A DNA stretch of 64,000 nucleotides from Lytechinus pictus (lineage: Eukaryota). The position numbers are program-made. Positions 2,808 to 5,800 of this stretch are shown here, piece after piece. The stretch's first letter is position 1; the number at the start of each line of letters is the position of its first letter. The stretch lies in NCBI RefSeq assembly GCF_037042905.1, contig NC_087261.1, positions 24,490,001 to 24,554,000 on the forward strand. The letters run 5' to 3'.

Positions 2808-5800
2808 ATATATACATATATATATATGTGTGTGTGTGAGGTGGTGTGTGTAATTTCATAAACACCTACAATAAACAAAACCAATCAAATATAGATAACT
2901 GTTAGATGAATTAGAAGATAAATGTACATAACATGACAAAGCAGGAACAAGTCAAAAATACACAAAAAGCTCAATTATGTTGTGGCAGACAAAATACTAT
3001 ACATAAATCTGAGAAAAGGGATTGAAGTTCGCGTTCCAATCCCATGCAAAGTAGGCTTCTATTTAAGACGTCCTTGTTTTACTCAATCTTGTCAATACAA
3101 ATCAGTTCAATCCATCAAACAGTATGGATCTCGGTTCCGGTGTCTTCCAAATCACCGATAATGTTCATGATATTACGTATTTATCATACATTGCATTGGA
3201 GTACGAATTCTTTTTAAAGTCCTGAATTTTCTTTCTTTTAGGAGCCACTTTGGGCTTCATTCCATTGTGTTTTGGTTGTACTTTCCTGTGACCAACGACG
3301 TATGTATCAGCTGCACCTCGTCCACCCTCATTGACGCGTTCATTCGCCGTTTCGTCCACCCGTTCGTTGTTGCCTTCTGAGGTCATTACCTCATAGAGAG
3401 TTTCAATGGTTTGGACTTGTCGACCAGTCTTTTCGTCTGATGAATGATTATTTATAAGATTGACATACGTGTGTTTCTTCAGATCTAACTCATTGTCATT
3501 CGTTACGGCGCCCGGCGGCATTCGAGGTTCGTTCCCTTTTGAGGTTTTAGTCGCGCTTGCGCCCATCGGGAGGTATGTATGGTAGGTGTTTGCGTCCCTC
3601 GCCTTTCGATTATTTTCGATTTTGGTCATATAAAGTGGTTTATTGGCCAAAACATTCAGATCGACGTCAGGCTCGGCTACGGAAGCCTCCTCGAGGTTGG
3701 CGTAGTCATTCACCGATTCGCTGATCGACGTGGCGTAGTCATGTTCAATCTGGCAGTACCCGACGGTGTCGTGTCGCGTCGGGTTCTCAGTGGCAACGGT
3801 GTAGTGATGGTGAGATAAGCCGGGTGATGGTGGGTTACCCGTCGGCATGGCTTGGCCGACTGCGTCGTAATCATCCTCGTCACCGTTGTCGAGCTCGAGG
3901 TAACCAGAATCCGATCCATTAGGAACATCGGCCAGACTACCGCTAGAGACCTGTACCATTAGGATGCCGAGTGACGGTGAGTCTGGGGGTCTACCACGGG
4001 TATGAGCAGGGGAACGGATATCTTCTGTGTCTGGTGTGGTATACAGATGAGAAAGAACTTCGCGCCCTGACTCCATAGGTTTCTTTCTGCGTCTGAAAAA
4101 AAAATCAACCATAAAATTGAAGAACGAATAAATCAAAACAAATTTCTTGTTCGATTGACGGATTATAAAATAAGTCACCAAAATAAAACAAACATAAAAT
4201 GGAAAAGTCAAAATAAGCTGCCCATTGCAATGGCAGTCCGTGGAGTTTGTCATTGAACATTATTCCCTGGCTGGGCAGCTAGTTTCGCCAATATTCGTCA
4301 GCCAAGGTTCTTAAAATAGATGTCGGTACCATCGAGATGTTTGCCAGAAACCCCCATCAAATACCCCAGTCAGCTCATGGATGTCTGCGAAAGGTACTAG
4401 GGAGCTTTTGCTTCCAAGACGCACGACGTATTCACAAACATAGAAAATGTATTGTCAAACGCTCTTCATGACAATGAACAACCAAGAAGTCTTTGTCGAA
4501 AATTGGTGAATCAACACAGCAGTTTAATAATAATAATAATAATCCGCATTTATATAGCGCTTAACACATCGGAACGACGTCTCTAAGCGCTTTACAGATA
4601 TATTATTACCCCGGTCATCGGATCCTTGCATGCCCGCATACAATGTATGCACCTTCTCCACTCCCTGGGGAGCATTCCAACAAGAGTTCCAAGACTCAAT
4701 TGCTAGGCATACTACATAGGCTTTCGCATCCTACCGGGTACCCATTTAACACCTGGGTGGAGAGTGGCAAATTGTGGATTGACGCCTTGCCAAAGGACGC
4801 TAGGCCATGGTGGGATTCGAACACACGACTCTCTGATTACAAGGCGAGAGTCAGAACCGCTACACCACGGCGTTTCGTCCTGGACTCTTGACAAACGACA
4901 TATGTGCAATTTTTTGTCAGCTCCGAAACTGCTGTTCCGGTTCACCAATTTTCGACAAAGACCTCCAAGCTGTTCATTGTAATTAATCGGGTATTTTCAA
5001 TATATTTGCTGTGTTTTTTGATATTAAAGTTGAGGGTAATGGCATCTATTTTGTCCAATCTTAACCCACCCCTCAGTCAGACATGTGCGCAAATGTTTAT
5101 AACAAATATATCAGTGGATCGGCGTTATTAAAACCAAGAAGATATTGGGGCAACTAGCAAATTTGAAACACAAAACTTTGATACCCACTTCTGATCGGCC
5201 AAATATCAAGAGTATTTTTTTCTTCGGCATCAAACGCGTTCAAAAGTAAAGATTCGATCACTGGTCCAGAACGCATATATTGTACATTATTAGAATTTCT
5301 GTCGCTGAAACAAAATGACAATTCAGATTTTGTTCACTTTGTCCATTCTCGGTGTTTTCTTTTAAACTTACTTAATAGTACGAATAGGGGGGGGGGGTCC
5401 TACAAAGTTGAATTTCAATCTGAATATGTATATCACTCAGAATTTGTTCTATCACCAGCAGTAGCATAATTAGTCACAATTTTGAGGGAGCCAATAGTGG
5501 CATAGGGGGCAAACATTTCTAATAAGCTGCGAGCGCGCAAAAGTGTTGGCCTGGGGTCCGTTGCAGAAAGAGTTGCGTTTAAACGCAAGTCAAAATATCA
5601 ATCGCAAGTCCCAAATGCGCGCTGTTGATTGGTTAAAAATCAAGTTGCGCATGATTTTTGAAGTTGCGTTTGATTGCAACTTTTTCTGCAACGGGCCCCT
5701 GGTCTTGTTAATACATACATTCAAATATTGCAATGTGTTTTTTACATAAAATTTAGAAAATGAAAGCATATTTCATTATTGTCCTTTTCTTTATTTTTTA

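What the first reader, a model, noticed from the sequence alone, without database searches (positions are those of the whole stretch)
3168..4050. Gene A tail uses a different SH2 code: Grb2, PI3K and Nck sites plus one ITAM-like pair
Seen: DSG-YLEL-DNGDEDD-YDAV (7-aa spacer, ITAM-like with Val in the last position, 3858-3911); YANL, YVNL, YSNA (YxN, Grb2 consensus); YLPM, YEVM (YxxM, PI3K p85); YDAV (Nck-type); YTTP (YxxP); VGYCQI and SGYLEL (ITIM-like). Gene B has almost none of the YxN/YxxM type. Inference: functional division between the paralogues, with A as a LAT/CD19-like adaptor and B as the ITAM/ITIM chain.
Basis: partly seen in the sequence, partly recalled or inferred. Interest (0 to 1): 0.68.

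Follow-up and report, generated by a model that had tools for sequence, protein, structure and literature searches.

The report
Tyrosine-rich tail of a CUB receptor
The region is the last coding exon of an animal gene for a membrane receptor with three CUB domains outside the cell and a long, floppy, tyrosine-studded tail inside, which probably serves as a docking strip for signalling proteins, a known kind of receptor design.

Summary

The stretch is the terminal exon (4092-3168) of a six-exon, phase-compatible model: signal peptide, three CUB exons, a transmembrane exon ending CYCVR, then a 308-residue tail of disordered-type composition.

No single motif class exceeds chance (P 0.036-0.68; omnibus 0.11). 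The "ITAM-like" pair is non-canonical and within chance (P 0.11).

Three signals are stronger:
- The tail has 16 Tyr, 1 Phe and 0 Trp (P about 3e-6).
- Seven of 16 Tyr have L/I/V/M at +3 (P 0.015).
- A and B differ in motif use (Fisher P 0.01, post hoc).

The tail matches no Pfam family, solved structure or Atlas cluster.

Best reading: a non-catalytic, tyrosine-phosphorylated CUB receptor, working like vertebrate CDCP1 or DCBLD1/2. It is not a LAT-type adaptor, because its ectodomain is large. The Grb2, PI3K and Nck assignments fit consensus only and were not tested.

Orthologue conservation, the decisive test, could not be run because the protein databases were closed. Modest interest; a new member of a known kind.

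The parts
14892..14970 (-). Gene A exon 1: ATG and signal peptide (MFRLTICLIQAWLLSTFVCMATAKPD), donor G|GTACGT, leaves 1 base (phase 1)
   Evidence: sequence read directly; hydrophobic core by eye; no signal-peptide predictor was run
13688..14014 (-). Gene A CUB exon 1 (327 nt, phase 1-1)
   Evidence: Pfam CUB PF00431, 22.2 bits against cutoff 21.4; splice sites and phases
8362..8742 (-). Gene A CUB exon 2 (381 nt, phase 1-1)
   Evidence: Pfam CUB 52.7 bits; best solved relative is cubilin, E 3.5e-19; phases
7739..8095 (-). Gene A CUB exon 3 (357 nt, phase 1-1)
   Evidence: Pfam CUB 32.9 bits; phases
5957..6050 (-). Gene A transmembrane exon: GFMIPMLSGIGVAVLLILVSTLTISCYCVR, acceptor cag, donor AG|GTATGT, phase 1 in and 2 out. 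Two Cys (CYC) lie at the cytosolic edge. A run of N lies in the intron just upstream.
   Evidence: hydropathy scan, sequence, phases
3168..4092 (-). Gene A terminal exon, the finding. The acceptor is a T-run followed by cag. The first base completes an Arg codon, giving RRRRKK after the membrane. A 308-residue tail with 16 Tyr follows; the stop is at 3165-3167.
   Evidence: GC 0.49 against 0.31 and 0.42 in the flanks
3858..3911 (-). DSG-YLEL-DNGDEDD-YDAV: acidic two-tyrosine island. YLEL also fits the ITIM-like pattern SGYLEL; YDAV fits YDxV.
   Evidence: loose ITAM pattern 1 vs 0.13 expected, P 0.11
3693..3704 (-). YANL (fits both YxN and YxxL), preceded by SVND
3456..3467 (-). YVNL (fits both YxN and YxxL)
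3192..3203 (-). YSNA (YxN) inside the basic C-terminal patch
3564..3575 (-). YLPM (YxxM)
3384..3395 (-). YEVM (YxxM). The codons GAG GTA ATG also look like a splice donor (6 of 9 to consensus).
3747..3758 (-). YCQI, within VGYCQI (ITIM-like pattern)
4032..4043 (-). YTTP (YxxP), the membrane-proximal tyrosine
29994..30344 (-). Gene B CUB exon (351 nt, phase 1-1)
   Evidence: Pfam CUB 25.8 bits; donor; acceptor ccag|TA
27490..27595 (-). Gene B transmembrane exon (…GVSIPLAVGLTLVAFGLGVAVVCAYHKKK), phase 1 in and 2 out, as in gene A
24763..26926 (-). Gene B terminal exon: 721-residue tail with 21 Tyr, of which 15 are Yxx[LI] and 0 are YxN or YxxM

Best explanation
The stretch 3168-4092 (minus strand) is the last coding exon of gene A. 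The gene encodes a type I single-pass membrane protein of about 721 codons: signal peptide, three CUB domains, a transmembrane helix ending in CYC, a run of RRRRKK, then a tail of about 310 residues that is predicted to be disordered and has no catalytic domain.

The tail most likely works as a phosphotyrosine docking strip, in these steps:
1. A ligand or a co-receptor engages the CUB ectodomain and clusters the protein.
2. A cytoplasmic Src- or Syk-type kinase phosphorylates several of the 16 tyrosines.
3. SH2-domain proteins dock on them.

By consensus the best candidates are a Grb2/Drk-type adaptor on YANL, YVNL and YSNA; a PI3K regulatory subunit on YLPM and YEVM; an Nck-type adaptor on YDAV; and Src, SHP or Syk-type SH2 domains on YLEL and YCQI.

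Shown here: the reading frame, the exon chain and its phases, the CUB domains, the membrane topology signals, the tail's composition and the motif positions. Inferred: splicing of these exons into one mRNA, phosphorylation, every partner, and the output pathways.

It works like vertebrate CDCP1 and DCBLD1/2, which are CUB-bearing scaffold receptors phosphorylated by Src-family kinases. It shows no detectable sequence kinship to their tails.
For: Coding and gene model:
- The frame is open for 364 codons in DNA of 38.6% GC. The chance expectation for the whole window is about 3e-6. Exon GC is 0.49 against 0.31 and 0.42 in the flanks.
- Exon 1, CUB1, CUB2, CUB3, the TM exon and the tail exon have consensus-like splice sites and matching phases (1, 1-1, 1-1, 1-1, 1-2, 2). 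Their lengths sum to 2163 nt, exactly 721 codons.
- Pfam CUB scores above its cutoff on 4 of 4 CUB exons.
- The basic run lies after the helix, and the CUB exons carry N-glycosylation sequons (seen directly).

Tail properties:
- The tail lies on the disordered side of the charge-hydropathy boundary, and the 4 CUB exons lie on the folded side.
- Aromatic residues are 16 Tyr, 1 Phe and 0 Trp. In the window's own trimmed CUB exons Tyr is 39% of aromatics. The binomial P is 3.4e-6, and still 1.4e-4 at a generous 50% share. This is the pattern expected if tyrosine itself is what selection keeps.
- Seven of 16 Tyr have L/I/V/M at +3, against 2.9 expected (P 0.015).
- Several Tyr follow acidic residues (DEDDY, VNDY, EHDY).

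Neighbour: gene B has the same architecture and intron phases, and its tail is unmistakably SH2-type (15 of 21 Tyr are Yxx[LI]; 0 of 20000 shuffles reach that).

Known analogues:
- CDCP1 has a CUB ectodomain, juxtamembrane Cys palmitoylation and five tail Tyr. These are bound by Src SH2, PKC-delta and SHP2 through an ITAM-like YAVI/YGHL pair (PMC3534080 and PMC4395315, passages read).
- DCBLD1/2 are CUB-bearing scaffold receptors whose YxxP sites bind CRKL after phosphorylation by Fyn or Abl (PMC6029619, abstract read).
Against: - No single motif class is enriched beyond chance, and the omnibus P is 0.11. The combined figures (P 0.02 and 0.009) were chosen after seeing the data.
- Acidic residues at positions -4 to -1 of the tyrosines are not significantly enriched (13 vs 9.3, P 0.12).
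- The tail has no Pfam family (best is HD_assoc at 14 bits against a cutoff of 22.2), no solved relative (best E 0.21) and no Atlas neighbour above noise (0.81).
- Conservation of the tyrosines in orthologues could not be examined at all.
- No transcript evidence joins the exons. A run of N sits in the intron next to the TM exon and could hide an exon.
- Tyr density itself (5.2%) is close to that of the window's ectodomain frames (4.8%). The unusual feature is the lack of Phe and Trp.
Confidence: 0.55

Rival explanations
1. A and B are paralogues with a division of labour: A is a LAT/CD19-like adaptor that recruits Grb2, PI3K and Nck, B is the ITAM/ITIM chain, and they act in one pathway.
For: - Motif usage differs between the tails. 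YxN or YxxM: 5 of 16 against 0 of 21, Fisher P 0.010. Yxx[LI]: 4 of 16 against 15 of 21, P 0.008.
- The genes lie on the same strand about 20 kb apart, with the same CUB-TM-tail architecture and the same phases at the TM and tail exons.
- A has a juxtamembrane CYC.
- LAX, of the LAT group, combines YxN sites with a YxxM (PMC3342071, passages).
Against: - LAT-type adaptors are defined by a very short ectodomain (PMC3342071). A has three CUB exons.
- The tails do not align (E 0.078). The CUB domains are only 29-30% identical, so any duplication is old or the tails are unrelated.
- Two of the three YxN sites are also YxxL.
- The comparison was chosen after looking at the data.
- Nothing here bears on co-expression or on a shared pathway.
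Confidence: 0.15
2. The tyrosines are mainly YxxΦ sorting signals. The tail would then direct clathrin-adaptor-dependent endocytosis or lysosomal delivery of a CUB-domain cargo receptor, not SH2 signalling.
For: - Seven of 16 Tyr have a bulky aliphatic residue or Met at +3 (P 0.015). This is also the YxxΦ pattern read by adaptor mu subunits (established knowledge, recalled).
- The closest solved relative of CUB exon 2 is cubilin, an endocytic ligand binder (E 3.5e-19).
Against: - One or two YxxΦ signals suffice for sorting. Sixteen Tyr with almost no Phe or Trp points to multivalent use.
- No NPxY and no [DE]xxxL[LI] signal is present (0 and 0).
- The acidic contexts around several Tyr suit kinases.
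- The two roles are not exclusive.
Confidence: 0.12
3. The motif matches are coincidences in a fast-evolving disordered tail. The tail acts as a spacer, or binds partners through other features such as the acidic middle and the basic C-terminal patch.
For: - All single classes have P of at least 0.036 and the omnibus P is 0.11.
- No homologue was found with the tools that were open.
- Charge is strongly segregated: net -8, -3 and -7 in tail residues 61-150, and +8 in residues 271-300.
Against: - The excess of Tyr over Phe and Trp (P 3.4e-6).
- The +3 hydrophobic bias (P 0.015).
- The very strong Yxx[LI] signal in the neighbouring gene of the same architecture.
Confidence: 0.15
4. The frame is not a functional exon. 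It would be a pseudogene remnant or a chance open frame.
For: - No AATAAA or ATTAAA lies within 864 nt downstream of the stop.
- There are no transcript data.
Against: - The 364-codon open frame has a chance expectation of about 3e-6.
- GC rises over the exon.
- The acceptor is clean, with a T-run.
- The exon lengths sum to a whole number of codons with matching phases.
Confidence: 0.03

Closest known systems
CDCP1 (CUB domain-containing protein 1, vertebrates)
   Same: Type I membrane protein with a CUB-type ectodomain, Cys residues at the cytosolic edge of the membrane, and a tail with no enzyme domain. The tail tyrosines are phosphorylated by Src-family kinases and dock Src SH2, PKC-delta and SHP2, including an ITAM-like YxxI/YxxL pair (PMC3534080 and PMC4395315, passages read).
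   Different: - CDCP1's tail has five Tyr; this one has 16 in about 310 residues.
- No similarity between the tails was detected.
- The CDCP1-specific Pfam CUB model scores below its cutoff (18.2 and 16.4 bits against 27).
- No CDCP1 chain is among the 33 solved relatives of CUB exon 2.
- YxN and YxxM sites are not among the CDCP1 features described in the passages read.
DCBLD1/DCBLD2 (ESDN) scaffold receptors
   Same: Transmembrane receptors that carry a CUB domain. Their intracellular tyrosine motifs are phosphorylated at many sites by Fyn or Abl and recruit an SH2 adaptor, CRK or CRKL (PMC6029619, abstract read).
   Different: - The DCBLD code is repeated YxxP; tail A has one YxxP.
- No LCCL or discoidin domain was found among the frames scanned (20 frames, not every frame of the window).
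LAT / NTAL / LAX transmembrane adaptors
   Same: Single-pass proteins with juxtamembrane Cys and a long tail with several YxN sites. LAX also has a YxxM (PMC3342071, passages read).
   Different: - These adaptors have ectodomains of a few residues and are not thought to bind ligands. Gene A has three CUB domains.
- A has CYC, not CxxC.
- A has 3 YxN, against five in NTAL and LAX.
- There is no Pfam match to any adaptor family.
CD19 and nephrin (ectodomain-bearing docking receptors)
   Same: A large ectodomain plus a tyrosine-rich tail that recruits PI3K p85 and adaptors. Nephrin uses three YDxV motifs, which its literature links to Nck (PMC11247170, start of abstract in the search listing; Blasutig 2008, title seen in a reference list). 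The CD19 features are recalled, not checked.
   Different: Their ectodomains are Ig-type, not CUB. No sequence similarity was tested or found. Tail A has a single YDxV.
Vaccinia A36 (OPG164)
   Same: A membrane-anchored disordered tail with adjacent Nck and Grb2 pTyr sites (PMC9333988, start of abstract in the search listing). Its cluster appeared at rank 8 of the Atlas search.
   Different: The Atlas score of 0.75 is noise level; a third of shuffled proteins reach 0.8. This is an analogy only.

Membership tests
LAT-type transmembrane adaptors (TRAPs) | Extracellular part of only a few residues (PMC3342071) | tested here: not met
   A signal-peptide exon and three CUB exons lie in phase with the TM and tail exons. 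The join is inferred from splice sites, not from transcripts.
LAT-type transmembrane adaptors (TRAPs) | Single transmembrane helix followed by a juxtamembrane CxxC palmitoylation motif (present in LAT, NTAL and PAG; absent in LAX) | tested here: inconclusive
   One helix is present. The Cys pair is CYC, i.e. CxC and not CxxC, at the cytosolic edge. Palmitoylation cannot be tested here.
LAT-type transmembrane adaptors (TRAPs) | Several YxN Grb2 sites (five in NTAL and LAX) | tested here: inconclusive
   3 YxN against 1.25 expected, P 0.12.
LAT-type transmembrane adaptors (TRAPs) | Sequence kinship to a named adaptor family | tested here: not met
   The Pfam scan of the tail at E up to 0.1 gave only HD_assoc, 14 bits, below its cutoff.
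ITAM | Yxx[LI] - 6 to 12 residues - Yxx[LI] | tested here: not met
   0 strict matches in tail A. The pair YLEL-x7-YDAV has Val at the last position. The loose pattern has P 0.11.
ITIM | [ILVS]xYxx[ILV], with recruitment of an SH2 phosphatase | tested here: inconclusive
   The pattern occurs twice (SGYLEL, VGYCQI) against 0.58 expected, P 0.11. Phosphatase binding is not testable here.
CDCP1 family | CDCP1-type CUB domains by sequence | tested here: not met
   PF23665 scores 18.2 and 16.4 bits against a cutoff of 27. The generic CUB model PF00431 is the best hit.
CDCP1 family | Architecture: CUB ectodomain, one TM helix, juxtamembrane Cys, tyrosine tail without enzyme domain | tested here: met
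   This is a likeness of design, not proof of descent.
DCBLD family | CUB plus LCCL plus discoidin domains, and repeated YxxP in the tail | tested here: not met
   Only CUB was found in gene A's exons. There is 1 YxxP against 1.09 expected.
[quoted passage not shown] | No kinase domain of its own | tested here: met
   No Pfam domain in the tail.
[quoted passage not shown] | Cytoplasmic tyrosines phosphorylated by Src-family kinases (PMC11399299, start of abstract in the listing) | not testable with these tools
   Needs phosphoproteomics or kinase assays.
Grb2 / p85 / Nck docking sites | Conservation of the Tyr and its +2 or +3 specificity residue in orthologues | not testable with these tools
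The one open genome collection holds bacteria and archaea only, so it was not used.

The most novel reading that the evidence does not exclude
A and B are a tandem pair of CUB-based (not Ig-based) immune-type receptors in a non-human, probably invertebrate, animal. B carries a dense Yxx[LI] (ITAM/ITIM-style) tail and A a Grb2/PI3K/Nck-style co-stimulatory tail. Together they would be an independently evolved paired or co-receptor system that uses CUB domains for recognition and splits the signalling codes between two neighbouring genes.
Probability: 0.1. Interest if true: 0.6.

Novelty: new member of a known kind. Interest (0 to 1): 0.3.

Why it matters
If the tyrosines are conserved and phosphorylated, gene A would be an example, outside the well-studied vertebrate set, of a receptor that has no kinase but carries its own multi-site docking strip behind a CUB ectodomain. 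That would extend the CDCP1/DCBLD design principle.

With gene B next door, it would also offer a natural pair for asking how different SH2 codes are distributed among related receptors. As it stands it is a plausible, ordinary-looking signalling receptor with a motif list that is only weakly beyond chance.

Tried and rejected
- Tail A against Pfam: nothing above cutoff.
- Tail A against solved structures: best E 0.21.
- Tail A against the ESM Atlas: best 0.81, which is noise.
I used a charge-hydropathy calculation instead. No model exists.
- Self-BLAST of both tails for internal repeats: no off-diagonal hit at E up to 1. By eye, tail B still has a duplicated YQPLSRPAS…QYExxRK unit.
- A local HMM built from the 4 CUB exons, run against all 954 stop-to-stop frames of at least 35 aa: only the 4 training exons score (by construction). 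The next best has E 1, so no further CUB exon is in the window.
- Rfam over the whole window: one tRNA-like hit only.
- Literature searches for an invertebrate CUB receptor with tyrosine motifs: no such report. The 'CUB' hits in the Hydractinia and Botryllus papers were journal DOI strings. 'CDCP1' hits in Drosophila papers were off target by their titles and abstract starts (not opened).
- Complex prediction was not used. SH2 docking needs phosphotyrosine, and I make no binding claim.
Every search was exon by exon, and only exon lengths were summed.
- The runs of N were left as they are.
- I do not take the contig for human.
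Full report
**What is at the coordinates**

On the minus strand there is a stop-to-stop frame at 3165..4259 (364 codons). Its upstream part is intron. A run of nine T followed by cag ends at 4093, and the exon starts at 4092. The first exon base completes an Arg codon. The remaining 308 codons (4091-3168) end at a stop at 3165-3167.

- YTTP 4032-4043
- YLEL 3891-3902, then the seven residues DNGDEDD, then YDAV 3858-3869
- YCQI 3747-3758
- YANL 3693-3704
- YLPM 3564-3575
- YVNL 3456-3467
- YEVM 3384-3395
- YSNA 3192-3203

The frame is real coding sequence by ordinary criteria. 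An open run of 364 codons at 38.6% GC has a window-wide chance expectation of about 3e-6. GC is 0.49 over the exon, against 0.31 and 0.42 on its flanks.

**The gene it belongs to**

I read the exons one by one and did not build or search a joined protein. Only the exon lengths were added up.

- A hydropathy scan finds a transmembrane segment at 6050-5957. It has a cag acceptor and an AG|GTATGT donor, and it leaves two bases that combine with the first base of the tail exon. The membrane segment ends …TISCYCVR and is followed across the junction by RRRKK. This gives a positive-inside signal and two Cys at the cytosolic edge.
- Upstream on the same strand lie three exons that score above Pfam's cutoff for the CUB domain: 14014-13688, 8742-8362 and 8095-7739, at 22.2, 52.7 and 32.9 bits against a cutoff of 21.4. 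All three are phase 1-1 exons with good splice sites.
- A first exon at 14970-14892 starts with ATG, has a hydrophobic signal-peptide-like core and ends in phase 1.
- The six lengths sum to 2163 nt, exactly 721 codons.
- A local profile built from the CUB exons finds no further CUB exon among 954 frames of the window.
- A run of N lies in the intron just upstream of the TM exon. I left it alone, and it could hide an exon.
- No transcript evidence is available, so the join is an inference from phases and splice sites.

**Gene B**

It has a CUB exon at 30344-29994, a TM exon at 27595-27490 and a 721-residue terminal exon at 26926-24763. The intron phases at the TM and tail exons are the same as in gene A.

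The CUB domains of A and B are 29-30% identical. The two tails do not align (best BLASTP E 0.078). So 'paralogue' holds for the architecture, but not demonstrably for the tails.

**Is the motif list more than chance?**

I used 20000 shuffles that keep the tail's composition.

| Class | Observed | Expected | P |
|---|---|---|---|
| YxN | 3 | 1.25 | 0.12 |
| YxxM | 2 | 0.47 | 0.07 |
| YxxP | 1 | 1.09 | 0.68 |
| Yxx[LI] | 4 | 1.35 | 0.036 |
| YDx[VP] | 1 | 0.17 | 0.15 |
| ITIM-like | 2 | 0.58 | 0.11 |
| Loose ITAM (V allowed) | 1 | 0.13 | 0.11 |
| Strict ITAM | 0 | 0.04 | n/a |

- Across the seven classes, 11% of shuffles reach a single-class P as low as the best observed.
About five labelled sites are therefore expected, and nine are seen (P 0.028).
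- YxN plus YxxM together give 5 against 1.7 (P 0.02). The joint event of at least 3 YxN and at least 2 YxxM has P 0.009. Both groupings were chosen after seeing the sequence.
- The figure 'all seven classes hit' is circular and I discard it.
- YANL and YVNL are at the same time YxxL, so the 'Grb2' and the 'ITIM/ITAM-type' labels overlap.

**What does stand out**

1. Aromatic composition. The tail has 16 Tyr, 1 Phe and 0 Trp. In the window's own CUB exons, trimmed to their splice sites, Tyr is 39% of aromatics (20 Y, 22 F, 9 W). This gives P 3.4e-6, and still 1.4e-4 if Tyr were half of all aromatics. The tail lies on the disordered side of the charge-hydropathy boundary, and all four CUB exons lie on the folded side. 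A structure prediction meant to check this did not complete.
2. Position +3. Seven of 16 tyrosines have L, I, V or M at +3, against 2.9 expected (P 0.015).
3. The neighbour. In tail B, 15 of 21 tyrosines are Yxx[LI] against 2.5 expected, and none of 20000 shuffles reaches that.

The A-versus-B contrast is nominally significant. For YxN or YxxM, Fisher P is 0.010; for Yxx[LI], P is 0.008. It is post hoc.

**No family for the tail**

- Pfam gives nothing above cutoff for either tail.
- The Protein Data Bank sequences give nothing (best E 0.21).
- The ESM Atlas gives a best score of 0.81, a level that a third of shuffled proteins reach. Its rank-8 cluster, poxvirus A36, is a tail that recruits Nck and Grb2. 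At 0.75 this is no evidence.
- CUB exon 2 is a generic CUB domain. Its best solved relatives are cubilin (E 3.5e-19), PCPE-1, neuropilins, MASPs and C1s. No CDCP1 chain is among the 33 hits. Pfam's CDCP1-specific CUB model stays below its cutoff.

**How it most likely works**

The protein is inserted with the CUB domains outside and the tail inside. This rests on the signal peptide, the RRRRKK run after the helix, and the N-glycosylation sequons in the CUB exons. The tail has no enzyme domain.

By analogy with receptors of the same design, I expect a cytoplasmic Src- or Syk-type kinase to phosphorylate several tail tyrosines when the receptor is engaged or clustered. SH2 proteins would then dock on them.

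Consensus matches point to these partners:
- a Grb2/Drk-type adaptor at YANL, YVNL and YSNA;
- a PI3K regulatory subunit at YLPM and YEVM;
- an Nck-type adaptor at YDAV (the YDxV motif of nephrin; PMC11247170, search listing);
- Src, SHP or Syk-type SH2 domains at YLEL and YCQI.

That these SH2 specificities hold outside vertebrates is my recollection and was not checked here. Only the anatomy and composition are shown. Phosphorylation, the partners and the outputs are inferred. I give the general docking-tail reading 0.55, and the specific partner list considerably less.

**Comparison with what is known**

- LAT-type adaptors are characterised by an ectodomain of a few residues, which makes them unlikely to be receptors. 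Many have a CxxC palmitoylation motif. NTAL and LAX have five YxN sites, and LAX also has a YxxM (PMC3342071, passages read). Gene A fails the first and defining point, has CYC and not CxxC, and has three YxN. It is not a LAT-family member, though its tail may work in a similar way.
- CDCP1 is the closer model. It has a CUB ectodomain, palmitoylated juxtamembrane cysteines and five tail tyrosines. Y734 docks Src SH2, Y762 docks PKC-delta, and the ITAM-like YAVI/YGHL pair docks SHP2 (PMC3534080 and PMC4395315, passages read).
- DCBLD1/2 are 'neuropilin-like transmembrane scaffolding receptors' with a CUB domain. Their YxxP sites bind CRKL after phosphorylation by Fyn or Abl (PMC6029619, abstract read).
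- The general class is the non-catalytic tyrosine-phosphorylated receptors (PMC11399299, start of abstract in the listing).

Gene A shares the design of these proteins but no detectable sequence kinship in the tail. I file it as a new member of a known kind.

My searches for a published invertebrate CUB receptor with such a tail found none. The searched library does not cover subscription journals, and I saw no supplements.

**Rivals**

- The tyrosines could be YxxΦ sorting signals of an endocytic CUB receptor. The +3 bias fits this, and cubilin is the nearest solved CUB. But 16 tyrosines are far more than sorting needs, and no NPxY or acidic dileucine signal is present.
- The motifs could be coincidences in a fast-evolving tail. 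The shuffles allow this for each class, but not for the Tyr-versus-Phe/Trp bias.
- A non-functional frame is very unlikely.

**What stayed unchecked**

The open genome collection holds only bacteria and archaea, so I did not spend it.
- Tail B in the Atlas.
- A structure model of the tail.
- Any expression or phosphorylation data.
- The source organism is unknown to me. The domain content (CUB, Ig, Mucin2_WxxW, laminin-G-like) says animal.

Noticed in passing
window 24763-26925 (minus), about tail B residues 410-455 and 485-530: Tail B holds an internally duplicated unit: YQPLSRPAS, about 30 residues, then QYE[TM][LN]RK..Q[VI]RP. A third YQPL lies further upstream. Self-BLAST at E up to 1 did not report it; it was seen by eye in the printed strings.
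   Followed up: partly
window 3858-3881 (tail A) and about 25204-25227 (tail B): Both tails carry an acidic island of the same form, DEDDYDAV in A and DENDYDEL in B. It is the only recognisable shared element of the two tails, and it is not significant as an alignment (E 0.69).
   Followed up: partly
window 3192-3281 (minus), tail A residues 271-300: There is a strongly basic C-terminal patch (net +8 in 30 residues, KPKVAPKRKK) after an acidic middle (net -8, -3 and -7 in residues 61-150). It could be a membrane-binding or nuclear-localisation-like element. The last three tyrosines lie in or just after it.
   Followed up: no
window about 3388-3396 (minus): The codons of YEVM read GAG|GTAATG, a donor-like site (6 of 9 to consensus) inside the terminal exon. 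No downstream exon candidate was seen, and no AATAAA or ATTAAA lies within 864 nt after the stop.
   Followed up: partly
window 39974-61139 (minus): Upstream on the same strand are several Ig-domain exons (for example 43136-43486, V-set/ig, about 34 bits), a Mucin2_WxxW exon (54266-54613, 37 bits) and a weak laminin-G-like frame (60633-61139, below cutoff). No transmembrane or tail exon for this Ig gene was found between 32300 and 39970.
   Followed up: partly
window about 4700-5000, 9220-9600, 28716-28788: tRNA-derived, SINE-like repeat copies whose frames read ..ATLHPGV.. lie in introns of genes A and B. Rfam reports one tRNA-like hit at 28716-28788, plus strand, 30.5 bits.
   Followed up: no
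window 20372-21478, 31867-32389, 45005-45902: Long trinucleotide microsatellite tracts give poly-Y, poly-T, poly-L and poly-S frames. Two of them abut runs of N. They are not coding.
   Followed up: no
window 5957-6050 and 27490-27595 (minus): Both TM exons end with a Cys and a Tyr at the membrane-cytosol edge, followed by a basic run (SCYCVR+RRRKK in A, VCAYHKKK+R in B). The intron falls at the same phase in the basic run.
   Followed up: yes
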